A stretch of DNA of 64,000 bases from a virus (IMGVR_UViG_3300014204_000112:149923-213922); one strand, 5' to 3'; counted from the stretch's first letter, positions 670 to 14,102 are shown. Translations and numbers: made by a program. The notes: generated by a model not told the origin, from the sequence alone.

Positions 670-743
670 TGATCGTAGCGGGAGTTGAACCTGCGACCTT
701 TACCATGTCAAGGTAACACTCTAACCAACTGAGCTATACGATC
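670..743 (-). tRNA. tRNA-Val(GAC)
   Basis: Canonical cloverleaf, ttacc-ttGACat-ggtaa. Confidence 0.95.
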
Positions 744-1371
744 ATTTTCGACCAGCGTGCCAACCGTTTTGCAAGTATTGTTCTAGCTGATCACTTTTTA
801 TTTTTTTAGTACTACAATCGTTAGATACCCATACTGTTCCAAATTGAGAATTGTTTGAACCTTTCTGTTTAATAGAATTCATTGATCCGATTTTATCTTT
901 AGTTTCAGCAGTATGATTTTTTCCTACAAAAGTATCGTACTTAATTTTTCCTTTAGTGTGAGACTTTTGCAATCTAACTGAACTTCGTTTGCTTTGGTCT
1001 TCTCTGTATTCTGGATCTTTCCACTTTTTCAACAACCAATCAGTTGCTCCTTTGTGCAATTTTATTTCATGATCAGAATTACATAATCCTCCACCTCCAC
1101 CTGGTTGTAAATTCATGCACATCTTGTCATTCAGGAGATCTTCGTTTATTAGTTGATATTCTCTATTCTTTAATGCTTCTCTGTTCTCCAGGAACTCCAG
1201 AATCTCTTTGGTGTGATTTTGTTTGCCGTATTTATGAATAGAATACCTCAATCTTCTACCGCTTCCCATATACCCATCATTTAAGTTCGAAGTCGAATGC
1301 ATTCCGATGTAGTATCTACCGGTTACATTACATGTGATCTTGTAAATGTAGTGAATTTGTTTTTTTGGCAT
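742..1371 (-). CDS. GIY-YIG (Seg-like) homing endonuclease
   Basis: YIYKIT...YYIG...YMGSG motif, NUMOD3-like HTAETKDKI. Confidence 0.9.
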   Translation of the reverse strand: MPKKQIHYIYKITCNVTGRYYIGMHSTSNLNDGYMGSGRRLRYSIHKYGKQNHTKEILEFLENREALKNREYQLINEDLLNDKMCMNLQPGGGGGLCNSDHEIKLHKGATDWLLKKWKDPEYREDQSKRSSVRLQKSHTKGKIKYDTFVGKNHTAETKDKIGSMNSIKQKGSNNSQFGTVWVSNDCSTKKIKSDQLEQYLQNGWHAGRK

Positions 1372-1417
1372 TTTTGTACTGAGCTTTTTGTTATTTATAT
1401 GAGCTCAAGTACAAAAA
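1371..1417 (-). promoter_or_regulatory. T4-late-type promoter TATAAATA within start-sequestering hairpin
   Basis: tatttata at 1392-1399 flanked by tttttgtactgagct/gagctcaagtacaaaaa. Confidence 0.7.
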
Positions 1418-1427
1418 TGACCAGAGG

Positions 1428-1502
1428 TACCGCATAGGGGATTCGAACCCCTGAATCTCCAGGATGAAAACCTGACGTCCTAACCAGCTAGACGAATGCG
1501 GC
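1428..1502 (-). tRNA. tRNA-Glu(TTC)
   Basis: Canonical cloverleaf. Confidence 0.93.
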
Positions 1503-1507
1503 ATGTT

Positions 1508-1621
1508 TGGAGGTAAGCGCTAGATTCGAACTAGCCACACAGCAGATTGCTCTGCCTCATTATCCGAAGGACTTCGACCCTATGCATCAAATCGAAGCTC
1601 TTAATTCTGTGATAGCTTACC
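1508..1621 (-). ncRNA. tRNA-like RNA with acceptor stem, T arm and CCA but a non-tRNA body
   Basis: ggtaagc/gcttacc-T-CCA, gctag-ttcgaat-ctagc; internal hairpins cttcgatt/ggtcgaag and gcaga-gcaa-tctgc; no D arm. Confidence 0.65.
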
Positions 1622-1634
1622 GTGTGTCTTCCAG

Positions 1635-1708
1635 TACTCCGGGGTGGGATTGAACCACCGACCTTGATCTTATAAGAATCCTGCTACTAACCGCTGAGCT
1701 ACCGGAGC
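1635..1708 (-). tRNA. tRNA-Ile(TAT)
   Basis: Cloverleaf with loop ct-TAT-aa. Confidence 0.85.
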
Positions 1709-1717
1709 AAATAAGTT

Positions 1718-1788
1718 GGAGAGAAAATCGGTAGAGTTGTTTGTTGTAAAACCAAAATTTACGAAGTAACTCTTTCCTTTACTACTCC
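1718..1788 (-). ncRNA. Y-RNA (YrlA)-like module, minimal copy
   Basis: tagtaaaggaaagagttacttcg ... ctctaccgattttctc module shared with six other loci. Confidence 0.55.
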
Positions 1789-1791
1789 TAG

Positions 1792-1866
1792 TGGATACAT
1801 GTGGGCTTCGAACCCACGACCTCCTGATTGCAAAACAGGCGCTCTTGCCATCTGAGCTAATGACCC
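1792..1866 (-). tRNA. tRNA-Ala(TGC), bulged acceptor stem
   Basis: G3.U70, loop tt-TGC-aa. Confidence 0.85.
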
Positions 1867-2495
1867 AAATTTCTACCTTTTATCCAACCAGTTGGAATCA
1901 GTTCGTTTTTTTGTATTTTCTTATTTACTGTTCCATTAGTAATCCACTGAGTTCCGTATTGCGAATTATTAGAACCCAGTTGACTGGTTGAATTCTTTAA
2001 TCCTATTACTTTTTTTGTTTTATCAGTATGCTGCTTTCCTAAAAAATTATCAGTTTTTATTTTACCAGTTTCCCATGCATGCTTCATATTTGCACTAGAA
2101 ATATTATGATACTTTTTTCTAAAGGATTCATCGATTTGCATACGATTCGAAAAAGCAGTATTTCCAGCAGTCCCACATTTTTTCATGTGATTAACATTAC
2201 AAAATCCGCCGCTTCCGCCAGGTTTCAAATTCATACACAGTGGATCATCTAGTAACTCAATATTTACGAGTTGAGTTTCTCTATTGATCAAAGATTCTTT
2301 AGTCTCTAGGAACTCCAGAATCTCCTTAGTGTGATTCTCTCTGCCATGCTTAAGAACTGAATATCTTAATTGTTTGCCGCTTCCGAAATATCCATCTTCT
2401 AAATTTGAAGCTGAATGCATTCCGATGTAATATCTACCAGTTACATTGCATGTGATCTTGTAAATGTAAAAGATTGATTTAGGTTTTCTTGGCAT
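1857..2495 (-). CDS. GIY-YIG (Seg-like) homing endonuclease, paralog of 742..1371
   Basis: Near-identical N-terminal YIYKITCNVTGRYYIGMHS. Confidence 0.9.
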   Translation of the reverse strand: MPRKPKSIFYIYKITCNVTGRYYIGMHSASNLEDGYFGSGKQLRYSVLKHGRENHTKEILEFLETKESLINRETQLVNIELLDDPLCMNLKPGGSGGFCNVNHMKKCGTAGNTAFSNRMQIDESFRKKYHNISSANMKHAWETGKIKTDNFLGKQHTDKTKKVIGLKNSTSQLGSNNSQYGTQWITNGTVNKKIQKNELIPTGWIKGRNLGH

Positions 2496-2551
2496 CTGCC
2501 GTACATTATTTTAGATTATTTATCTAAGACAAGGTACAAAAAATGCCGGGG

Positions 2552-2625
2552 TGGAGATTACGAGATTCGAACTCGTGACATCCTGCTTGCAGGGCAGGCG
2601 CTCTGGCCATCTGAGCTAAATCCCC
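2552..2625 (-). tRNA. tRNA-Ala(TGC), second copy (C33)
   Basis: G3.U70, cctgc-ccTGCaa-gcagg. Confidence 0.88.
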
Positions 2626-2627
2626 AT

Positions 2628-2738
2628 AAGTAGAGAAAGTCGGAAGAGATAACAGGCGGTTTCGACACCGCGACTTTTGTTTAAGAGACAAATACTGGAC
2701 TCCCAGCTCGAAGTAACTCTTTCCATTACTACTACTTT
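2628..2738 (-). ncRNA. Y-RNA-like module replacing the acceptor stem of a tRNA-like body (CTT anticodon-like arm)
   Basis: Module at both ends; inside ctgg/ccag, tttgt-ctCTTaa-acaaa, gcggt-gtcgaa-accgc. Confidence 0.6.
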
Positions 2739-2739
2739 G

Positions 2740-2815
2740 TAGGGTAGGTGGGCTATGACCCCACGTGCTCTTAATCCCAAATCAAGCGAGATAAACCAGA
2801 CTCCTCTACTACCCT
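2740..2815 (-). tRNA. tRNA-Pro(TGG), atypical T loop GTCATAG
   Basis: agggtag/ctaccct, cttga-ttTGGga-ttaag. Confidence 0.8.
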
Positions 2816-3459
2816 GTGATGTTATTTTTTAAGAATGTTTTTATTTGAGATTCCATAAGTTTGAAATTTCGGTGTTTCCATTGTATTCTTACAATTTTCC
2901 AACCTTCCTTTTTTATTATGTTATCTCGATTTACATCATATTCTTTTCTTTCCTCATGTTGTTTTCCATCTATTTCTAAAATTACTTTTTTATCAATGAA
3001 TGCAAAATCAGCAAAAAATCTATTTACTTTATGATCTCTTATGTATTTTATTTGTTCTTTATTAAGAAGATCTATTGTAAATTGTTCAGCCCAAGACGGT
3101 TTCTTATTTAATCGTGAAGGATAACCATTATGTCTACCTTCTTTTGCTAATTGTTTTTGTGTATATGAAGAAGAACAATTCCGCGAACAGAATTTATTAG
3201 TATTTGTTATTAACACTTCTTTTTCTTTTCCGCATACTAAACACGACATTATTTTTCTATCAATTAAATGAAGACCTTTTCTATTAGTTGACGTTCCTTT
3301 CAAAAATGATGGTTTTCCTAATAACGATTTACTAACCTTTTCGTTAATTTCTTTCCGTTTTTCTTTTGTACTAAATCCTCTAGAACATTTAGAAGAACAA
3401 AATCTGCCACTTCCATATTGACCATCATGTGGATTACCACAATTTTCGCAAAGTTTCAT
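2809..3459 (-). CDS. Zn-finger + DUF559/Vsr-like endonuclease
   Basis: CxxC/FCSxxCS repeats, FADF...ILEIDGKQH...DxxRD. Confidence 0.85.
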   Translation of the reverse strand: MKLCENCGNPHDGQYGSGRFCSSKCSRGFSTKEKRKEINEKVSKSLLGKPSFLKGTSTNRKGLHLIDRKIMSCLVCGKEKEVLITNTNKFCSRNCSSSYTQKQLAKEGRHNGYPSRLNKKPSWAEQFTIDLLNKEQIKYIRDHKVNRFFADFAFIDKKVILEIDGKQHEERKEYDVNRDNIIKKEGWKIVRIQWKHRNFKLMESQIKTFLKNNITG

Positions 3460-3511
3460 AAGTTCGTTTATTGTTATTTATATTCGAACCTATCCACTTT
3501 TTTGATCCCGG

Positions 3512-3585
3512 TAGGCAGGGGTGGACTTGAACCACCGGCCTCTTCCTTATCAGAGAAGCGCTCTAACCAACTGAGCTACATGCCC
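3512..3585 (-). tRNA. tRNA-Ile(GAT)
   Basis: Canonical cloverleaf. Confidence 0.93.
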
Positions 3586-3590
3586 GTATA

Positions 3591-3713
3591 TGAAGCAACG
3601 ATTTTCCATGTCAGTAGGACGTTGCCAACCTATCCAGCTTACGATCTGGCTCGCCGTTTGACCTTGCGGTCAGGGAAAGCGAGGAACTACGACCCGGTGG
3701 CCTGCCGGTACAT
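3591..3713 (-). ncRNA. Candidate GC-rich multi-hairpin RNA
   Basis: tgacc-GCAA-ggtca inside ctcgc/gcgag, ccag/ctgg, tagg/ccta, ccgg/ccgg. Confidence 0.45.
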
Positions 3714-3715
3714 CG

Positions 3716-3923
3716 AGCCTTTAGACGGATTCGAACCGCCGACTCCTCAACTACACCGTATGGTCTTGATTCGTGTACACTCCTCTTGATTTTCAGGTTC
3801 GTCTACCTCGAATCTCCTGGTTATCCATTCAAGTTGTCTTACGTACGACGCATTGAACCTTTCGCCAAAATTTCCAAGGTCCGGTCCTAATCCGGACGCT
3901 CTAAGCCGCTGAGCTAAGGGGAT
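3716..3923 (-). ncRNA. tRNA-like RNA with D and T arms and a ~130-nt structured insert at the anticodon position
   Basis: tagctcagcggcttagagc D arm, ggcgg-ttcgaat-ccgtc T arm, weak acceptor stem. Confidence 0.6.
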
Positions 3924-3926
3924 ATT

Positions 3927-4520
3927 TTATTTGTTAAAATTTATTTCGATGAATCTTTTTGTTTGAGTATTAGAAATGTTCCAACTTTTTGATAATTTCG
4001 TAATCCAACCGAATTTCTTTTCTATTGAATCATACTCATTTTTTCTTCTATTAAATTCGTCAGTTTTCATTTTTCCAGCTTCGCTTATCAATCTTTTAGA
4101 TTCAGAAGTATGTCGTTTTCCTTTGAACGATGCAGCACCCAATCTTTTTCTTTTTGATAATGGAATTGGCCAACCCTTGTGTTTTCCTTCAATAACGTTT
4201 TTCTTTATTGATTCTCTTCTCTCTGGTCTGCTCCAAGCGTATTCCCAACCACCTTCTCCTCCAAGCTTGAGATTGTAAGTATCTTCTCTGTTAATAAAGA
4301 ATTCATTTACTAGTTCTTTTTCTTTTTCTAGAGCTTCATTTTTCGTTGGAAAAACGTAAAGAATTTCTTTTCTGAAATTTTGAATCCCATATTTTTTAAT
4401 TGCCGCTTTTAACAATTTTCCAGAACCAAAATACTCGTCATTCAAATTTTTAGTTGAATGATAACCGATGTAAATTTTAGAATTTAAGCAATTTGTTATT
4501 TTGTAAATAGCGTAATACAT
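3927..4520 (-). CDS. GIY-YIG homing endonuclease
   Basis: AIYKIT...IYIG...YFGSG, NUMOD3-like. Confidence 0.9.
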   Translation of the reverse strand: MYYAIYKITNCLNSKIYIGYHSTKNLNDEYFGSGKLLKAAIKKYGIQNFRKEILYVFPTKNEALEKEKELVNEFFINREDTYNLKLGGEGGWEYAWSRPERRESIKKNVIEGKHKGWPIPLSKRKRLGAASFKGKRHTSESKRLISEAGKMKTDEFNRRKNEYDSIEKKFGWITKLSKSWNISNTQTKRFIEINFNK

Positions 4521-4565
4521 TAACCGTAGTTTTGATTTTATTTATATGAATCTGCGGTTAATTTG

Positions 4566-4638
4566 AGCTTCCTGTAGGCTACGACCCCACGACCCTCTGA
4601 GTACAAATCAGATGCTCTACCAACTGAGCTAAGGAAGC
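4566..4638 (-). tRNA. tRNA-Thr(TGT), atypical T loop GTCGTAG
   Basis: tctga-ttTGTac-tcaga. Confidence 0.88.
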
Positions 4639-4648
4639 ATTTTTTGAG

Positions 4649-4721
4649 AGCCTCATACCCGATTCAAACGGGTGACCTACTGAGTACGAATCAGTTGCTC
4701 TATCTGCTGAGCTAAAGAGGC
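4649..4721 (-). tRNA. tRNA-Thr(CGT)
   Basis: actga-ttCGTac-tcagt. Confidence 0.9.
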
Positions 4722-4722
4722 A

Positions 4723-5157
4723 TTATAAATCTTTGGCTGTTACGAATTCCTGTGAACTGATTCGGTTAGGACCTCCATCGACGAAGTACGTAAGATTATT
4801 TCCAGTTCGTATTGCCCATAGTATCAACCAATTAAGAACAGCTGAATCCATTTTAGAAACTGCTTCTATAGCTTGATAATGTTCAATCTTGCCAGTTTTC
4901 TTCGTCACTAGAACGTTGGACAAGCTCGGTTTCATCCACATTGGAAAGTCATCATTCGTTAACCATTCGCACTTGTAAGTTATGCAAGGATCGATCGGTC
5001 TATTCTCGTAAATCGTGCAACCTTTTCCGATTTCTACAAAGTGACAAGGTTTTCCTCGATAGAATCTTTCTCCATGAGCTACTCCGTGTAACCAACCTTC
5101 ACAACATTTCGTGCAATCTCCACAAGTTCTTTTTGGAACATTAACAGTTTTTTCCAT
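4723..5157 (-). CDS. Cys-cluster (YkgJ/CxxCxxCC-like) protein
   Basis: CGDCTKCC...C...CTIYENRP..C. Confidence 0.7.
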   Translation of the reverse strand: MEKTVNVPKRTCGDCTKCCEGWLHGVAHGERFYRGKPCHFVEIGKGCTIYENRPIDPCITYKCEWLTNDDFPMWMKPSLSNVLVTKKTGKIEHYQAIEAVSKMDSAVLNWLILWAIRTGNNLTYFVDGGPNRISSQEFVTAKDL

Positions 5158-5204
5158 TCTAGTAGTTTTACTTATTATACAGAAGGACCGTAACAAGTTT
5201 TATT

Positions 5205-5280
5205 TGGCACCCGCGGAAGGACTTGAACCCTCAACCCTCGGTTTTGGAGACCGGTACTCTACCAATTGAGCTACACGGAT
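5205..5280 (-). tRNA. tRNA-Trp(CCA) with encoded CCA end
   Basis: Canonical cloverleaf. Confidence 0.93.
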
Positions 5281-5285
5281 AAGTT

Positions 5286-5394
5286 TGATTTGAGAATGGT
5301 AAAAAGAGTTTTTTACTAAGCAAGGTTTGGTGCTTGGTGTTGGATTCGAACCAACGATAACCATCGATGTATCTCTTTTTTTTGCTACAAATCA
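5286..5394 (-). ncRNA. Y-RNA (YrlA)-like RNA with T arm
   Basis: tagcaaaaaaaagagatacatcg ... gttgg-ttcgaat-ccaac ... ctctttttaccattctc. Confidence 0.55.
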
Positions 5395-5395
5395 G

Positions 5396-5472
5396 CGGGC
5401 CCAAACGGATTCGAACCGTCCTGAATCTTCTGAGTGACAGTCAGACAGCCACACCTAGCAGCCCCTGAGCCC
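5396..5472 (-). tRNA. tRNA-Asp(GTC)
   Basis: tctga-ctGTCac-tcaga, G73. Confidence 0.9.
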
Positions 5473-6000
5473 ATGTTCTTTTTCTTCAATATTCTGTAGT
5501 TTCCAAACTTCAAACTGAATATTTTGTTCAGATAATGCTTTCCATTTACACTTATCGATTTCAGTTTCAAATCCTTTAACTTCAATGTAATAGGTAGATC
5601 CATTAATATTGATGACTTTGAAATCCAATAGATAATTATGAACTTCGTTATCTGGACCTATGTATTGTATTCGGTCATTTGTGTATTCCCAATCTCTTAT
5701 TAAGTAGTTGGCCTTCCAATTATCAAGAATTTTACAAACTCGTAATTCAAAGGATCCCTGTACCTTGATTGATTTATATTGATACCATTTAGAAGTTCCA
5801 CCAGCTACATAATTATGACCTAACCTATAAGCTTGTTTATGAACTTCTGACCAATTTACTTTATTATGGTTTGACCAACTTCCTCGTAATTTACTAGAAC
5901 AGCTAACTGAGCAACATTTTTGATTTCTTTTATTCCAGTGAACTGAGAATTTAGTCAAACAATATTTACAAATTAACTGCACATCTTCGTGTTTTGTCAT
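5455..6000 (-). CDS. Zn-finger + TnsA-like PD-(D/E)XK endonuclease
   Basis: YLLDF...YIEVKG. Confidence 0.8.
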   Translation of the reverse strand: MTKHEDVQLICKYCLTKFSVHWNKRNQKCCSVSCSSKLRGSWSNHNKVNWSEVHKQAYRLGHNYVAGGTSKWYQYKSIKVQGSFELRVCKILDNWKANYLIRDWEYTNDRIQYIGPDNEVHNYLLDFKVININGSTYYIEVKGFETEIDKCKWKALSEQNIQFEVWKLQNIEEKEHGLRGC

Positions 6001-6046
6001 GGCACTTTATTTATACGCGCCTCGTCTTTCGCCGTGAAGTTAAATG

Positions 6047-6122
6047 TGGTAGGCTCGAAGGGACTTGAACCCTTGACTCCCGCCTTAAAAGGGCGGTACT
6101 CTACCAACTGAGTTACGAACCC
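6047..6122 (-). tRNA. tRNA-Lys(TTT) with encoded CCA
   Basis: Canonical cloverleaf. Confidence 0.95.
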
Positions 6123-6538
6123 GTAATCGCTTCTCGAATCTTTTGTTTATGTTCATCCGATTTAGCTTTACCCCTATTTCCTTTACCACCGTTTGACGAA
6201 CGTTTTCTCAAAAGTTCTTTAGCTTTAACTTTGCCATGTTTATCAATCATTCGTTGATAGATTGATGGCGCTCCATTTTCGTATTCGTCAATTTTATTAT
6301 CTGACTTAGTCCCCCAATACATGTGATTAGGATTACTACATTTTGGATTGTTACAGCCGTGGCAAACAACGATGCTATTTCCATTGACTGGCATTGTCGT
6401 ATCGTAGTGGTATGCAACCAGAGCAACTAACTGAGTAGAGTATTTCAATCCACGTTCGTGGCAAGGTTCCTCTAACTTTAGCATTTGTTTTCTTTGTGCT
6501 CTAGTGTTTTCGATTACAAAATTTTCAACTGATTTCAT
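6113..6538 (-). CDS. HNH-type homing endonuclease with NUMOD3-like tail
   Basis: VCHGCNNPKCSNPNHMYWGT...N, KSDEHKQKI. Confidence 0.8.
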   Translation of the reverse strand: MKSVENFVIENTRAQRKQMLKLEEPCHERGLKYSTQLVALVAYHYDTTMPVNGNSIVVCHGCNNPKCSNPNHMYWGTKSDNKIDEYENGAPSIYQRMIDKHGKVKAKELLRKRSSNGGKGNRGKAKSDEHKQKIREAITGS

Positions 6539-6619
6539 GTTTTAGTTTATATATCTAGAGCAATCTCTTAAAAGTACAGCACTCTAGCGATAATTGGTCT
6601 TTGTTCAATAAATAACGGC

Positions 6620-6817
6620 ATGGTTAATGAACGTTATTTTATGTGCTCCAAGTGCGGAACAGTCGTCGACTCGTTCGGCAAAGCAGTGGATGCAAAGAAA
6701 CTAGAAATAGACATAAAATCTTTAAGAAGTACCACTTGTAAGATTTGTCTTGACTATCAAATCTGGGAAAACAATACTTACTTTTCGAGGACTGATCGGG
6801 ACTCGAACCCGAGATAA
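6620..6817 (+). CDS. Small Zn-finger protein antisense to the array
   Basis: CSKC...CKIC, preceded by aataaata box. Confidence 0.45.
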   Translation: MVNERYFMCSKCGTVVDSFGKAVDAKKLEIDIKSLRSTTCKICLDYQIWENNTYFSRTDRDSNPR

Positions 6818-6857
6818 CCAACTGGATGGGGCGCGCACCAACCACCACGTTCAGCCC
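6788..6857 (-). pseudogene. Degenerate tRNA-like gene (G3.U70, collapsed anticodon arm)
   Basis: gggctga/tcagtcc, tcggg-ttcgagt-cccga, poor anticodon stem. Confidence 0.55.
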
Positions 6858-6864
6858 ATAAATA

Positions 6865-7003
6865 CAAACAAGAACACTGGATAGAGGAATTTGATTGATG
6901 TCAATTTTACAGATTGATGACTTAGACCGCTCGTCCAACGACCCGAAAGCCGTACGGGATTCGAACCCGTGATCGAAGTAACTCTATGACCTTACTATGC
7001 TTG
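6865..7003 (-). ncRNA. Y-RNA-like RNA with circularly permuted tRNA (T arm, closed acceptor, D arm, GTA anticodon arm)
   Basis: tagtaaggtcatagagttacttcg-T arm-acggc tttcg ggtcgt-D arm-tcaat ctGTAaa attga-ctctat. Confidence 0.65.
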
Positions 7004-7451
7004 ATTTCTTATTTACAATGTTTTTTGCTCCGAACGTATGTGTTTGTGAATGACAGTTTGGACACAAAATTCTCAGATTTTGAAGTCTGTGATTTCGGTT
7101 ATTTCCGTCAATATGATCGACTTGTAATGATAAAGGTAGACCGTTCCATTCTGCTGGAGTTCCGCATTCTTCACATCGATCCTCTTTATAACCTTCCAGT
7201 ATCAATCGTCTTTTTAATTTCGATGTCGGATATTCTGGGTGTTTTCCTTCAAGAATGTCTAGCAATTTGAATGCTACTCCTCCGGTTCTTTTCATTTTTC
7301 GTAACTTGACTTCAATTTGTATTCCTAACAAATTGCAATATTTGGTTAGGGTTACTCTACTGATTCCAGTTACTTCTGAAAGTTCCAAAACAGAGCTAAC
7401 GTTCTTGGCATTTTCATTGATTTTGTCTACGATTTCTTGGTTTAGCCGCAT
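6984..7451 (-). CDS. HNH homing endonuclease (start reassigned to MRLNQ)
   Basis: CEECG...LQVDHIDGN..N....NLRILCPNCH; late box at 7463-7470 in ccgcat/atgcgg hairpin. Confidence 0.88.
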   Translation of the reverse strand: MRLNQEIVDKINENAKNVSSVLELSEVTGISRVTLTKYCNLLGIQIEVKLRKMKRTGGVAFKLLDILEGKHPEYPTSKLKRRLILEGYKEDRCEECGTPAEWNGLPLSLQVDHIDGNNRNHRLQNLRILCPNCHSQTHTFGAKNIVNKKSSIVRS

Positions 7452-7504
7452 TGCTTTATTTTTATTTATATGCGGTCTGTTTACCAAAACCTCTGTAAAC
7501 TACG

Positions 7505-7586
7505 TGGGATGTGATGGAGTCGAACCACCCGAGCTTTCACAACAGATTTACAGTCTGCCCCGCTACCATCTACGGAATAACATCCC
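7505..7586 (-). tRNA. tRNA-Tyr(GTA)
   Basis: Type II cloverleaf. Confidence 0.93.
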
Positions 7587-7628
7587 ATTGTCCCTCTATT
7601 TTTGATTTCCTGGAGGGTGCGGAAGGTG

Positions 7629-7746
7629 CGGGAAGGTGAGATTCGAACTCACGAGATCAAATTGACAGTTTGATTGTTTCCGATGCAACTCTTATCATTG
7701 CTATCCTTTCAGAAGAAATTCGACAGAGCGTTTTGAATTTCTTCCC
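7629..7746 (-). ncRNA. tRNA/Y-RNA hybrid, module replaces D arm (GTC arm, G73)
   Basis: gggaag/cttccc, atcaaa-ctGTCaa-tttgat, T arm. Confidence 0.65.
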
Positions 7747-7786
7747 CGAGTGTACCTGTTTTTACTGTACAGGAGAACAGTGTAGG

Positions 7787-7904
7787 AGGGGGAAGTTGGA
7801 TTTGAACCAACGATCAAATTTTCAAGGTTTGATTGTGCCGATGAAACTCTTATCATTGCTATCATCGCTGAAGAAAGTCGACAGAGTCGTTTTTACTTTC
7901 CCCC
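7787..7904 (-). ncRNA. tRNA/Y-RNA hybrid, module replaces D arm (TGA/TTG-like arm)
   Basis: gggggaa/ttccccc, T arm gttgg-ttcaaat-ccaac. Confidence 0.65.
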
Positions 7905-7920
7905 ATGTTTTATTAAGTAT

Positions 7921-8045
7921 TGGCGAGGGAGGCTGGATTTGAACCAACATAATCAAGTTTTCAATTTGACTGTTACCGATGCAACTCTATTCATTGCTAT
8001 CATTGCTGAAGAAAGTCGGATAGAGCATTGTGTATATGCTCCCTC
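7921..8045 (-). ncRNA. tRNA/Y-RNA hybrid with CCA, module replaces D arm (GAA-like arm)
   Basis: gagggag/ctccctc-G-CCA, T arm. Confidence 0.65.
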
Positions 8046-8053
8046 ATGTATTT

Positions 8054-8842
8054 TTATAGGTTCCAAGATTTTCCTTTGTACTCCCGATTCACTCTTCGGT
8101 ATGAAGAGATGATCCCTTGTGAATGAAGATCGTAACCGTTGAGTATTCTTATATTCATTGGAAATTGGTCCCATTTTGCGAAATCTTTATCTGTAGGATA
8201 TCCTTTAATTTCGATGTAAACATTATCCTCTAAAAGATAAAAATCTGGCGTGTAATACCTTTTTTTTCCATCAAAGAAGTATTCGAATTTTTCAGTAGGT
8301 CTTCGCCACTTGATCGAATTTGCATCCAACCATTTAGCATATTCAACTTCCCATATTCCTTGAAATTTTTTTCCAGCATATTCATGAGTTCTAGACTTAG
8401 AAAAGGATAAATGCCAATTATCATTTTTAACGTTTTCTTTTATTGTATTAGCAATAGTATTTCGATGATCTATTGATAAATGTTTTCCTTTAAAAAAAGG
8501 TATGAATGCACCGGATTTAAGGTTAGTATTAAAAGTATCTGACCCTTTTTTAACTCTAGCATCGGTTTCTTTGGTTAATCCGTGATTCCATGAAGGTTTA
8601 CCACCAAGATTATTATTTTTCCAATTAATTCCATCTTCATGATTTCTCCAAATGTGAGAAATGATTCCTAATTTAGAATAAACTTTACCACAGTATGGGC
8701 ATTTATAAGTTCCATCATTTTGTAAATAATTAATGCTCTTTAATCTAATTTTCTTAGTTCCACAAGATTTTTCATGTTTAGATATATTACTTAAACTTAT
8801 CTTAATGCCGCATTTTTTACAGTTAGTAGTGTGTCGGTTCAT
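8054..8842 (-). CDS. Zn-finger + TnsA-like PD-(D/E)XK endonuclease
   Basis: C2H2-like fingers, SWNHGLTKETD, YTPDFY...YIEIKG. Confidence 0.85.
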   Translation of the reverse strand: MNRHTTNCKKCGIKISLSNISKHEKSCGTKKIRLKSINYLQNDGTYKCPYCGKVYSKLGIISHIWRNHEDGINWKNNNLGGKPSWNHGLTKETDARVKKGSDTFNTNLKSGAFIPFFKGKHLSIDHRNTIANTIKENVKNDNWHLSFSKSRTHEYAGKKFQGIWEVEYAKWLDANSIKWRRPTEKFEYFFDGKKRYYTPDFYLLEDNVYIEIKGYPTDKDFAKWDQFPMNIRILNGYDLHSQGIISSYRRVNREYKGKSWNL

Positions 8843-12518: not shown

Positions 12519-14102
12519 TTATTTCTGGTATTTTTCTTTCTTAAGGTGTTCCTCAATCGTTGCTCTGATTGCGGCTAACGTTGTCCTGCGAACGATGACT
12601 CCATCGACGAATACTGGCTGCAACATTCCTGTCGCTTCTTCTTCCCAGGTAACTCCGTCGGTGTAGGTCATGTCTTTGTTCACTCTGACGAGACCGCGAG
12701 CTGATTTCTTCATTCCGCTGTCGGTGATGGGATCCTTAAAGATTTCCTTCTGGCGACCATCTACAGTTTCGGCGAATGTAGCTTTCATCGCCATCATGTA
12801 AGTGTCCCTAGTGACGTACTGGTAGGTGTAGGAACCGATTCCGAGGACCAGATTGGAAGCACAGAATCCCTTTTCTTCGAGCCGTGCAAGAATGTCCCTC
12901 TGTCTCTGCATCGTAATGGAATCGCCGTAGATCAGGCCGATGTGAGTGTCAAGCTGTTTGTAACCTTTTTCTGTCGTAGGACCAGGAAACATGGTGTACA
13001 GGTATTCGTAAGCTCCGAGGAATTCAGCATCAGTCATTTCCTCAGCAATCTTATCGTCTGATTTGAAGAAGTACTTCGGCTGGTCTTCGCTGTAGTCAAT
13101 CACGATTTCGTTGACCCTGTAGCCAGAAACGATGTGAACTGGTTCTCCTGAGTCGGGACGAATTACGAGACGACCGTTACGGGCGAGGATTTCTGTTTTG
13201 AGGCCGGGGATCAGGACCTTCAGAACTTTCCAGAAGTTCCAGGTGTCGGAAACCACGGAGATCGGGCCATCCGGATAGATCTTCGTGATCAGCCGTTTGA
13301 AAGTATTGTAGTCCGAGTCAACACATTCGTCGCGGGTAAGACCCTCTGATGCGACCATGTGGATCATGTGCTCGGTTGCCGGGATGCTACCGCCAATGAG
13401 TTCAGTATTGCTATCAGCCCCGTAGTAATCTTCGAGGAAGTCGATTGCAAGAATGGTGTCGGTGCCGGTGAAACTTAGAAGGTGTGCTGCTCCGGAAAGA
13501 GCTGCATCTTCTGGGCCTGACATTCCACGGAACGAAAAGTCGTGTCCCTGCCATTTCACGAAGTCCATCGGACCGTCAGTGAGACGCATGTGGCGTTCGA
13601 ATTCTTTCCTGTAATGGAACGCGGTCGTTGCACTGGTGCAAGGTTTCCACAGAACGCAGCTGAGCAGCGATTCCAGGTAATTGGTCAACCATGCGAAACG
13701 TTTGTCACCGTGCTTGGTGTTGCGAATGGTGAGCATTGGGGTACGCATTGGAACGAGAGTTCCTTCAGGTACGGCCTTAATCACAAGCGGCAAGTAGCCA
13801 AGATCATGGAGAGCTTCAATGTGAGCTACTGGAACCGTTCCAGGTCCGAGTGAGCTATCCATTCTTCTCTGGTACTTACGTACGACCTTCGCCTTCGGTT
13901 TGAAGAAGAATTCGTCGTTCCAGTTACGGACAAGAAATTCCTGAAGGAAGTACTGGAGGCCGAAGAACACGATCTCATCAGCCCATGGAACCCTGGTTCC
14001 GCGAGGAGTGAATGTCGAATAAATGACGACCGTGTCTTCCGGTATCATCATTGGGTGTCCGACTTTGTAGAAGTCGGCCGCGTGCAATGGGAAAATTTTC
14101 AT
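12519..14102 (-). CDS. Nicotinamide phosphoribosyltransferase-family protein (probable NARP1 Namat)
   Basis: ADFYKVGH, HDFSFRG, SIPATEH, VSDTW, IRPDSG, IYGDSIT, KKSARG. Confidence 0.92.
   Translation of the reverse strand: MKIFPLHAADFYKVGHPMMIPEDTVVIYSTFTPRGTRVPWADEIVFFGLQYFLQEFLVRNWNDEFFFKPKAKVVRKYQRRMDSSLGPGTVPVAHIEALHDLGYLPLVIKAVPEGTLVPMRTPMLTIRNTKHGDKRFAWLTNYLESLLSCVLWKPCTSATTAFHYRKEFERHMRLTDGPMDFVKWQGHDFSFRGMSGPEDAALSGAAHLLSFTGTDTILAIDFLEDYYGADSNTELIGGSIPATEHMIHMVASEGLTRDECVDSDYNTFKRLITKIYPDGPISVVSDTWNFWKVLKVLIPGLKTEILARNGRLVIRPDSGEPVHIVSGYRVNEIVIDYSEDQPKYFFKSDDKIAEEMTDAEFLGAYEYLYTMFPGPTTEKGYKQLDTHIGLIYGDSITMQRQRDILARLEEKGFCASNLVLGIGSYTYQYVTRDTYMMAMKATFAETVDGRQKEIFKDPITDSGMKKSARGLVRVNKDMTYTDGVTWEEEATGMLQPVFVDGVIVRRTTLAAIRATIEEHLKKEKYQK

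What the first reader, a model, noticed from the sequence alone, without database searches (positions are those of the whole stretch)
7629..8045. Three tandem tRNA/Y-module hybrids with intact acceptor ends and different anticodon-like loops
Each has an acceptor stem, T arm and anticodon-like hairpin (GTC with G73, matching Asp identity elements; TGA/TTG; GAA with encoded CCA). A ~60-nt loop-closed Y module takes the place of the D arm. Acceptor stems differ between copies but stay paired, which suggests selection on structure. They may be aminoacylated or act as decoy substrates for anticodon nucleases (inference).
Basis: partly seen in the sequence, partly recalled or inferred. Interest (0 to 1): 0.7.

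Follow-up and report, generated by a model that had tools for sequence, protein, structure and literature searches.

The report
tRNA-shaped RNAs carrying a Ro60 handle
Three neighbouring genes in a large phage's tRNA cluster encode tRNA-shaped RNAs with an extra, sealed hairpin; the same hairpin "handle" marks the small RNAs that travel with the phage's Ro60-like RNA-binding protein, so these are most likely protein-bound tRNA look-alikes built the opposite way round from known bacterial Y RNAs.

Summary
On the minus strand at 7625-8045 lie three tandem ~120-nt units. Each has a 7-nt acceptor strand, a 9-13-nt spacer, a 42-43-nt sealed hairpin (bulged clamp helix, UUUCU/UAGCAA internal loop, 3-bp stem, GNRA cap), a weak D-like element, an anticodon-like hairpin, a T arm and the acceptor 3' strand.

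I found 23 distinct homologues in at least 12 phage lineages. Of the base-pair cells, 93% are paired, and 27 of 33 pairs carry compensatory changes (0 of 500 shuffles reach this).

The hairpin has the same architecture as the handle on other small RNAs in this tRNA array. That handle goes with a TROVE+vWA (Ro60-like) gene in both directions: 75 motifs on the gene's strand against 1 opposite in 28 loci, and 19 of 27 contigs found through the RNA motif alone encode the protein.

- The module is inserted between the acceptor and a residual D element; it does not replace the D arm.
- U1's acceptor stem is imperfect.
- The U2 and U3 loops have 9 nt.
- Only U3 encodes CCA.

Best reading: Y-RNA-like partners of phage Ro60, matured like tRNAs, with topology inverse to YrlA. 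Aminoacylation and decoy roles are untested. The scan reached the same reading earlier on other DNA (e1-5824602). I found no Rfam family or paper that describes this.

The parts
7625..7747 (-). Unit U1: tRNA-shaped RNA with handle arm. Acceptor 5' 7741-7747, spacer 7730-7740, handle 7688-7729, D-like 7676-7687, anticodon-like arm 7656-7675 (7-nt loop CUGUCAA), T arm 7636-7652, acceptor 3' 7629-7635.
   Evidence: Parse. Model R2 scores 150.6 bits. The 3' two-thirds scores 23.9 bits on Rfam tRNA, below threshold. The acceptor 3' strand lacks one C present in orthologues L004 and L093.
7784..7904 (-). Unit U2. Acceptor 5' 7898-7904, spacer 7888-7897, handle 7846-7887, D-like 7835-7845, anticodon-like arm 7813-7834 (9-nt loop holding CUUGAAA), T arm 7795-7811, acceptor 3' 7788-7794. 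No encoded CCA.
   Evidence: R2 scores 84.9 bits. R1 (handle model) scores 75.8 bits.
7921..8045 (-). Unit U3. Acceptor 5' 8039-8045, spacer 8027-8038, handle 7984-8026, D-like 7972-7983, anticodon-like arm 7951-7971 (9-nt loop holding UUGAAAA), T arm 7932-7948, acceptor 3' 7925-7931, encoded GCCA 7921-7924.
   Evidence: R2 scores 91.8 bits. R1 scores 67.6 bits. The 3' part scores 18 bits on Rfam tRNA.
7688..7729 (-). Sealed handle of U1, as an example of the module: a 9-bp clamp helix with a one-base bulge, an internal loop (NNUUUCU opposite UAGCAA), a 3-bp stem and a GNRA tetraloop.
   Evidence: RNAalifold finds it without guidance. Clamp pairs change on both sides in 6 of 9 positions and the apical stem in 3 of 3. 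The cap is GNRA in 21 of 23 relatives.
7755..7773 (-). Spacer hairpin just upstream of the last unit, with a conserved loop ACRGUAAAA.
   Evidence: The stem covaries: CCUGU/ACAGG (window, L007), CUCUC/GAGAG (L003), GUACC/GGUAC (L004). It occurs once in the tRNA array. Its role is unknown.

Best explanation
The three units are non-coding RNAs of the Y-RNA kind. They are partners of the phage's Ro60-like (TROVE+vWA) ring protein, built as a nearly complete tRNA with an extra arm.

Shown by computation:
- Each unit folds as acceptor stem, sealed handle hairpin, anticodon-like hairpin and T arm.
- The handle has the same architecture as the handle on the other small RNAs of this tRNA array.
- That handle and the Ro60-like gene travel together across phages whose proteins are only 30-40% identical.

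Inferred:
1. The units are transcribed with the tRNA array. Because they present a 7-bp acceptor stem stacked on a T arm (usually with U at -1), RNase P cuts them at the 5' end, and they are trimmed or CCA-tailed at the 3' end like tRNAs, giving stable ~120-nt RNAs.
2. The sealed handle docks on the outer face of the Ro60-like ring, as Y-RNA stems do.
3. The tRNA-shaped body keeps its acceptor end and anticodon loop free, unlike YrlA. It either engages a tRNA-binding factor and tethers it to the ring (as Y RNA tethers PNPase), or serves as a nuclease-resistant scaffold.

The topology is the inverse of YrlA. In YrlA the RNA ends lie in the Ro60-binding stem and the acceptor stem is sealed. Here the Ro60-type handle is sealed and the acceptor stem is open.
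For: Structure:
- 23 distinct homologues; 93.4% of cells paired; 27 of 33 pairs with double changes; 0 of 500 shuffles; slid controls 39-51% (15-sequence version).
- GNRA cap in 21 of 23.

tRNA frame:
- ARAGORN never calls the intact units (0 of 13).
- After in-silico removal of spacer plus handle, it of 13 as tRNAs at default settings.
- The unit model also hits ordinary tRNAs at up to 34 bits.

Handle and Ro60 link:
- The handle motif ending AGAGUUACUUCG occurs 8 times in the genome, all on the array strand.
- A 542-aa TROVE+vWA gene lies at the end of the array: phrog_850 at 3.9e-30, Thermus phage Ro60 structures 9L5Y/9KOP at 7.6e-9 over the full length, VWA_2 at 27.6 bits.
- In 28 loci fetched through the protein, there are 75 handle motifs on its strand, 1 on the opposite strand, and 3 in 1.58 Mb of unrelated loci.
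- Of 27 contigs fetched through the RNA motif alone, 19 encode the protein, including 4 of 5 that are at least 90% complete.
- Units of this exact design lie 0.2-15 kb from the gene on the same strand in at least 12 lineages, and less than 600 nt upstream in L148-150, L158 and L159.

Precedent: M. smegmatis YrlA is cut by RNase P and receives CCA in vivo while bound to Rsr (PMC4201824).

Expression hint: short contigs from four metatranscriptome runs cover parts of the units.
Against: - No binding, processing or expression experiment exists. The RNA-library contigs may be DNA carry-over and cannot show RNA ends.
- The Rfam YrlA model does not match the units.
- The classical GNCGAA Ro60 motif is only partly present (GUCGAA in some units, absent in distant ones).
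- Three TROVE-encoding phages, two of them complete, lack this unit type, so the protein does not need it.
- In the window the gene is 14.5 kb away, beyond the 4-kb criterion used for YrlA.
- A competing pairing between the spacer and the UUUCU strand of the handle covaries in some lineages (UU/AA, AC/GU, GU/AC), and single-sequence minimum-energy folds prefer it. The handle may therefore not be the only conformation.
Confidence: 0.6

Rival explanations
1. Baits or decoys. The units mimic particular host or phage tRNAs so that a tRNA-targeting factor (anticodon nuclease, modification enzyme, synthetase) binds or cuts them instead of real tRNAs, possibly while they are held on the Ro60-like ring. 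This is a special case of the main reading, not an exclusive alternative.
For: - Across the family the anticodon-like loop is the fastest-changing tRNA part, yet it often keeps canonical geometry (7 nt, U33, purine 37). Triplets seen are GUC, CAU, UGA, GAA, GUA, GUG, GCA, UUC and UGG.
- The acceptor end and anticodon loop are left free by the position of the handle.
- Phage tRNA arrays are known counter-measures to tRNA-cleaving defences (my own knowledge, not tested here).
Against: - In the window only U1 has a canonical loop; U2 and U3 have 9-nt loops.
- No nuclease or defence gene was linked to the units.
- No RtcB or CCA-adding enzyme is present in the record.
- There is no cleavage data.
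Confidence: 0.15
2. The handle is real, but its partner is not the TROVE protein. It could bind another protein, or make an RNA-RNA contact through its GNRA cap, and the link with the TROVE gene would reflect shared residence in tRNA arrays.
For: - The association is genomic only.
- In the window the gene is 14.5 kb away.
- In L158 and L159 the unit also lies next to a GOLLD RNA.
- GNRA loops often dock into RNA receptors (general knowledge).
Against: - The link holds from both directions and is strand-specific.
- Many handles abut the gene itself.
- The handle has the helix-bulge-helix form expected of Ro60 ligands (PMC12135203, PMC4201824).
Confidence: 0.12
3. Working tRNAs with an extra arm: aminoacylated and used in translation.
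For: - Acceptor stem, T arm, and NCCA encoded in 8 of the first 15 units (for comparison: about 10 of 42 ordinary tRNAs).
- U1-type units have GUC plus G at the discriminator position.
- ARAGORN accepts the frame once the handle is removed.
Against: - The same array already has tRNA-Asp GUC, Ser UGA and Phe GAA.
- The anticodon is not conserved among orthologues.
- Most near relatives have 8-9-nt loops.
- The D stem has no covariation support (helix 4).
- L003 unit A and L148 lost the T-loop consensus but kept the handle.
- The handle is the best-conserved part.
Confidence: 0.05
4. tRNA precursors with an unusual intervening sequence. The spacer plus handle would be cut out and the ends joined to give ordinary tRNAs.
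For: Removing the spacer and handle in silico gives sequences that ARAGORN calls tRNAs.
Against: - No known bacterial or phage splicing route removes a 55-nt hairpin between tRNA positions 7 and 8.
- The segment is far too small for a group I intron.
- The insert is the most conserved part and is shared with RNAs that have no tRNA ends.
- No RtcB ligase is present in the record.
Confidence: 0.04
5. Decaying tRNA genes hit by an inserted repeat, with no function.
For: U1 has an imperfect acceptor stem. Some relatives have degenerate T loops.
Against: There are compensatory changes in every helix across lineages whose partner proteins are about 37% identical. The GNRA cap is conserved and the position relative to the TROVE gene is conserved.
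Confidence: 0.03

Closest known systems
YrlA (Y RNA-like A; Rfam RF02553) of bacteria and mycobacteriophages, bound by Rsr/Ro60 (Chen et al. 2014, PMC4201824; Wang et al. 2018, 10.1101/312249)
   Same: A small RNA encoded on the same strand as a Ro60 orthologue. It combines a protein-binding bulged helix with a tRNA-like domain that includes a T arm.
   Different: - YrlA is a circularly permuted tRNA: its ends lie in the Ro60-binding stem, which continues the anticodon stem. Its acceptor stem is sealed, and it has no anticodon loop and no free CCA.
- Here the gene order is that of a normal tRNA. The acceptor ends are open, an anticodon-like hairpin is present, and the handle is a sealed side arm between the acceptor and D regions.
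- The RF02553 model does not match.
- The signature here is UUUCU/UAGYAA plus AGAGUUACUUCG, not GNCGAAN0-1G.
[quoted passage not shown]
   Same: A Ro60-bound RNA whose tRNA-like domain has a 7-bp acceptor stem and free, CCA-tailed ends produced by tRNA-maturation enzymes.
   Different: That RNA becomes two pieces (82 nt and 65 nt) held together by base pairing. The units here would be a single piece because the handle is capped.
Yrl1 and Yrl2 of Thermus phage phiLo with phiRo60 (PMC12135203; PDB 9L5Y, 9KOP)
   Same: Phage-encoded Ro60 with phage-encoded partner RNAs next to the gene. The window's protein matches phiRo60 over its full length (7.6e-9).
   Different: The phiLo RNAs are described as 5'-3' stem, bulge with CGAA, stem. 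No tRNA ends or anticodon arm are reported for them.
tmRNA and viral tRNA-like structures (TYMV type)
   Same: tRNA mimics with a free CCA end that tRNA enzymes can process.
   Different: ARAGORN finds no tmRNA here. There is no tag reading frame, and the extra domain is a Ro60-type handle. The comparison rests on general knowledge.
Other handle-bearing RNAs of the same array (window about 1718-1790, 2628-2730, 5286-5390, 6865-6990)
   Same: The same handle architecture and the same flanking AGAGUUACUUCG motif.
   Different: In those RNAs the handle strands are the two ends of the RNA (open handle). The tRNA parts are internal, partial or permuted.

Membership tests
Y RNA / YrlA (RF02553) | Match to the Rfam YrlA covariance model at its gathering score (69 bits) | tested here: not met
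   No match on the three units even at E up to 10. Elsewhere in the array there are only 19-23-bit matches: one on a tandem tRNA pair and one on an open-handle RNA.
Y RNA / YrlA (RF02553) | Encoded near a Ro60/TROVE orthologue on the same strand (Chen et al. used 4 kb) | tested here: inconclusive
   Same strand in every case. The distance is 14.5 kb in the window, but under 0.6 kb in L148-150, L158 and L159, and 2-6 kb in G015, G023, G030 and G032.
Y RNA / YrlA (RF02553) | GNCGAAN0-1G motif near the 5' end in the Ro60-binding stem | tested here: not met
   GUCGAA occurs in the handle's 5' strand in U1 and three relatives, without the closing G. Other units have GUCGAC, GUCGGU or AUCCGAC, and distant units lack it.
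Y RNA / YrlA (RF02553) | Topology: RNA ends in the protein-binding stem, with the tRNA-like domain internal and a sealed acceptor stem | tested here: not met
   The arrangement is the opposite: the handle is capped by GNRA and the acceptor stem is open.
Y RNA / YrlA (RF02553) | Bound by Ro60/Rsr | not testable with these tools
   Only genomic association is available.
tRNA | Recognised as a cloverleaf by tRNA detectors | tested here: not met
   ARAGORN finds 0 of 13 intact units. Rfam tRNA scores 23.9 and 18 bits against a 29-bit threshold, and only over the 3' part.
tRNA | 7-bp acceptor stem, and a T arm with the UUCRAAU loop | tested here: met
   U2 and U3 have 7 bp; U1 has 6 bp plus a mismatch. 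All three T arms are canonical, and both helices covary.
tRNA | 7-nt anticodon loop with U33 and purine 37, with the anticodon conserved among orthologues | tested here: not met
   Only U1 qualifies in the window. The triplet differs among positional orthologues.
tRNA | D arm directly after positions 8-9 | tested here: inconclusive
   A 52-55-nt spacer plus handle intervenes. The residual D-like element (UNCNUCGG...) shows no covariation: in helix 4 the middle pair is broken in 11 of 23 sequences.
tRNA | Aminoacylation and decoding | not testable with these tools
   No data.
Ro60 / TROVE protein (the presumed partner) | TROVE (HEAT-repeat ring) followed by a vWA domain | tested here: met
   VWA_2 scores 27.6 bits (cut-off 27), TROVE 22.1 bits (cut-off 23; 23.2 with neighbours), phrog_850 3.9e-30, and the full-length match to phiLo Ro60 structures is 7.6e-9. 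No fold was predicted here.

The most novel reading that the evidence does not exclude
These are CCA-ended, possibly chargeable Y RNAs. They would be handle-tagged mimics of specific tRNAs whose free acceptor ends and fast-changing but canonical anticodon loops capture tRNA-specific factors, such as anticodon nucleases of host defence, synthetases or modification enzymes. The captured factor would then be presented to the phage Ro60-like ring and its associated exonuclease. That would be a phage counter-defence, or a tRNA quality-control device, of a kind not yet described.
Probability: 0.15. Interest if true: 0.85.

Novelty: new variant of a known kind. Interest (0 to 1): 0.62.

Why it matters
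Ro60 and its Y RNAs are conserved from bacteria to humans, yet it is still unclear what the tRNA-like part of bacterial Y RNAs is for.

This family offers a natural variant in which the tRNA-like part keeps everything YrlA lacks: open acceptor ends, often an encoded CCA, and an anticodon hairpin. The protein handle is reduced to a compact, sealed 43-nt arm.

That makes two questions directly testable:
- Does a Ro60 partner RNA enter tRNA pathways (RNase P, CCA addition, charging, anticodon nucleases)?
- Does Ro60 use tRNA mimicry to reach tRNA-binding proteins?

The work also defines a portable candidate Ro60-binding hairpin, and it shows that tRNA detectors systematically miss a class of genes inside phage tRNA arrays.

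Tried and rejected
1. My first idea was relatives of the stable RNAs C and D of the T4 tRNA region. I did not pursue it once the Ro60 handle link appeared, so it remains untested.
2. BLAST of the region against 50,697 phage records found nothing.
3. The pattern TTTCTTC...GATAGCAA alone gave mostly chance hits in coding DNA.
4. Single-sequence folding gave unremarkable z-scores (-0.8 to -1.7) and preferred a 5' hairpin over the handle. The structure rests on comparison between sequences, not on energy.
5. The D-like hairpin has no covariation.
6. I tested whether handle halves belong to neighbouring units, with pairing across units. I rejected this because relatives with a single unit have the full sealed design, and the cap is a 4-nt GNRA loop.
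7. I rejected a protein-coding reading of the overlapping short ORFs. Relatives differ by 1-2-nt indels and by paired changes.
8. A search for a parental tRNA found no phage tRNA especially close to any unit. The best is about 65% identity, to a tRNA-Met.
9. RtcB and a CCA-adding enzyme were not found in the 83%-complete record.
10. There are no sigma-70-type promoters or terminators on the minus strand around the trio.
11. The metatranscriptome contigs cover parts of the units but cannot prove transcription or define ends. Parts without cover mean nothing.

Full report
WHAT IS THERE

The window is the last 64 kb of a 213,922-bp IMG/VR phage record. Its first 9.3 kb belong to a minus-strand array of 42 tRNA genes, interspersed with GIY-YIG, HNH and other endonuclease ORFs.

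Between tRNA-Asn with an endonuclease ORF and tRNA-Tyr, the minus strand holds three tandem units of about 120 nt: U1 7625-7747, U2 7784-7904 and U3 7921-8045. Neither ARAGORN nor Rfam at gathering score calls them. At relaxed thresholds the Rfam tRNA model matches only the 3' two-thirds of U1 (23.9 bits) and U3 (18 bits).

Each unit reads, 5' to 3':
- a 7-nt acceptor strand
- a 9-13-nt spacer (range over the near relatives; 10-12 nt in the window)
- a 42-43-nt hairpin
- a short conserved element (UNCNUCGG...)
- an anticodon-like hairpin
- 1-3 variable nt
- a T arm with loop UUCGAAU or UUCAAAU
- the complementary acceptor strand, a discriminator base and, in U3 only, CCA

U1's 3' strand lacks one C that its orthologues have, so its stem is 6 bp plus a G.G mismatch. 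U2 and U3 have 9-nt loops, and only U1 has a canonical 7-nt loop (CUGUCAA). The hairpin does not replace the D arm; it lies between acceptor position 7 and a residual D-like element.

IT IS CONSERVED AND STRUCTURED

Pattern scans of viral and metagenome contigs gave close relatives with two units each at the same place in the array: L003, L004, L007/L009 and L093.

RNAalifold on nine sequences recovered four elements without guidance:
- the acceptor stem
- a bulged clamp helix closing the insert
- a 3-bp stem capped by a tetraloop
- the anticodon and T stems

A covariance model of the whole unit (R2) found further members beside distant versions of the same protein gene. In all there are 23 distinct sequences from at least 12 phage lineages, at 39-156 bits. 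Ordinary tRNAs stop at 34 bits.

On that alignment 93.4% of cells are standard pairs and 27 of 33 pairs change on both sides. No shuffle in 500 reaches any of the five measures. Sliding the partners by 1-3 columns drops pairing to 39-51% and the covariation score from 0.495 to at most 0.10 (the 15-sequence version is). The alignment was fitted to the model, so these figures lean towards the structure. However, acceptor variants such as GGCCGAG/CUCGGCC, GGCGAGA/UCUCGCC and GGGGAUU/AAUCCCC cannot be alignment artefacts.

The cap is GNRA in 21 of 23 sequences. The 3-bp D-like helix is not supported: its middle pair is broken in 11 of 23.

THE FRAME IS A tRNA

When the spacer and hairpin are removed in a script, ARAGORN at default settings of 13 units as tRNAs (Asp GUC, Phe GAA, Ser UGA, Met CAU, His GUG). 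It calls none of the intact ones. The insert therefore sits where tRNA positions 8-9 would be.

No tRNA of the phage is a clear parent; the best has about 65% identity.

The base before G1 is U in most upstream units, and NCCA is encoded in 8 of the first 15 units, against about 10 of 42 ordinary tRNAs in the array. Both fit substrates of the tRNA-maturation enzymes, but this is inference.

THE HAIRPIN IS THE Ro60-TYPE HANDLE OF THIS PHAGE GROUP

A 542-aa ORF at genome 141381-143009 (minus strand, at the downstream end of the array) gives these matches:
- VWA_2 at 27.6 bits
- TROVE at 22.1 bits (cut-off 23)
- phrog_850 "RNA-binding protein" at 3.9e-30
- the Ro60 of Thermus phage phiLo (PDB 9L5Y, 9KOP) over residues 38-520 at 7.6e-9

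Other small RNAs in the array (window about 1718, 2628, 5286 and 6865) carry the same architecture, with its two strands at the RNA's ends: outer helix, UAGYAA opposite NUUUCU, middle helix, bulge and an AGAG/CUCU helix, always followed by UUACUUCG. The motif ending AGAGUUACUUCG occurs eight times in the genome, all on the array strand.

In the trio the strand order is reversed and the outer helix is capped, so the handle is sealed and the tRNA ends are open.

The link to the protein holds from both sides:
- In 28 loci fetched through the protein (37-99% identity), the handle motif occurs 75 times on the gene's strand and once on the other strand. It occurs 3 times in 1.58 Mb of unrelated loci.
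- Of 27 contigs of at least 37 kb fetched through the RNA motif alone, 19 encode the protein, including 4 of 5 that are at least 90% complete.

Sealed-handle units lie on the gene's strand, less than 600 nt upstream in L148-150, L158 and L159, and 2-6 kb away in G015, G023, G030 and G032. Three TROVE phages, two of them complete, lack them.

EXPRESSION

Contigs from four metatranscriptome runs (wastewater and sludge, at least three studies) cover parts of the units. One matches U3's 5' half without a difference, and one bridges U1 and tRNA-Tyr. Most of the neighbouring endonuclease ORF is uncovered. This is a weak hint only. DNA carry-over is possible and contigs cannot show RNA ends.

HOW IT MOST LIKELY WORKS

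My commitment, at about 0.6, is as follows. The units are transcribed with the array and released by RNase P and 3' trimming or CCA addition, because they present an acceptor-T minihelix. They fold as a tRNA-like body with a side arm, and the side arm docks on the Ro60-like ring, as Y-RNA stems do. The body, with its acceptor end and anticodon loop exposed, either recruits a tRNA-binding factor to the ring (as Y RNAs tether PNPase; PMC4201824, PMC12135203) or simply gives a nuclease-resistant scaffold.

The fold, the shared handle and the gene association are shown. Processing, binding and the tethered partner are inferred.

One feature is unresolved. The spacer can pair with the UUUCU strand of the handle, with three kinds of compensatory change (UU/AA, AC/GU, GU/AC) in some lineages but none in U3-type units. 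This could be a pseudoknot or an alternative state.

AGAINST DECODING, AND FOR SOME FORM OF tRNA-SPECIFIC MIMICRY

The last unit of four related phages carries GUC, GUC, a 9-nt UGA-like loop and CAU. Most near relatives have 8-9-nt loops. L003 unit A and L148 have lost the T-loop consensus but kept the handle. The array already encodes the matching tRNAs.

Yet more distant members mostly keep a canonical 7-nt loop with U33 and a purine at 37, with many different triplets: GCA, UUC, UGG, GAA, UGA, GUA, GUG and CAU. This suggests that resembling particular tRNAs matters.

COMPARISON WITH WHAT IS KNOWN

YrlA RNAs are described as circularly permuted tRNAs with sealed acceptor stems and no free CCA. 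The Ro60-binding stem extends from the anticodon stem (10.1101/312249). Only M. smegmatis YrlA is opened by RNase P and CCA-tailed, and it becomes two pieces (PMC4201824). Jumbo-phage TROVE genes "with a tRNA-like partner" are mentioned in PMC7824862. Thermus phage Yrl1 and Yrl2 are simple stem-bulge-stem RNAs (PMC12135203).

The units here work like Y RNAs but fail the YrlA membership tests on the model match, the motif and the topology.

Three literature searches returned these papers and nothing describing this design. No Rfam family matches it either, on the window or on four of the relatives' loci. The scan itself reached the same reading on another phage (e1-5824602).

VERDICT

This is a real, conserved RNA class and a new variant of a known kind. 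The function rests on association only.

Noticed in passing
L158:3519-3933 and L159:8468-8884: A full-length GOLLD RNA (Rfam RF02032, 277-281 bits) lies directly upstream of the sealed-handle unit and the TROVE gene in two distant phages. The order is GOLLD, unit, TROVE within about 1.5 kb.
   Followed up: no
window 7755-7773 (minus strand): A small hairpin with the conserved loop ACRGUAAAA and a covarying stem sits just before the last unit in four phages. It may be a processing or regulatory signal.
   Followed up: partly
window about 1718-1790, 2628-2730, 5286-5390, 6865-6990 (minus strand); genome about 140225: Other RNAs carry the same handle in open form, attached to partial or permuted tRNA parts. 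Examples are a CUU anticodon arm at about 2628 and a GUA arm with the T arm first at about 6865.
   Followed up: partly
G000:C1:134513-134586 (outside the window): ARAGORN calls a tRNA with anticodon CUA, which reads the amber stop codon, in the same phage. This could hint at stop-codon reassignment or suppression late in infection.
   Followed up: no
window 742-8842 (minus strand): At least seven of the nine ORFs scanned between the tRNA genes are endonuclease-like (GIY-YIG, HNH, DUF559, endonuclease I-like). The array looks heavily colonised by homing-type nucleases.
   Followed up: partly
L139:9592-9651, L141:355-414, L146:1571-1631, L145:12001-12060: Weak matches of the sealed-handle model fall at junctions of tandem open-handle RNAs: the 3' strand of one element followed by the 5' strand of the next. 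This suggests how a sealed handle could arise from a tandem pair.
   Followed up: no
L086:1282-1389: A contig end carries a sealed handle followed by a different body that contains ACAGCAA and no obvious T arm. It may be another arrangement of the same handle.
   Followed up: no
window 12519-14102 (minus strand): A nicotinamide phosphoribosyltransferase gene (phrog_448, 9.7e-174) lies just upstream of the tRNA array.
   Followed up: no
L159:20868-21275: A tmRNA gene (RF00023, 69.7 bits) is present in a distant TROVE-encoding phage contig.
   Followed up: no
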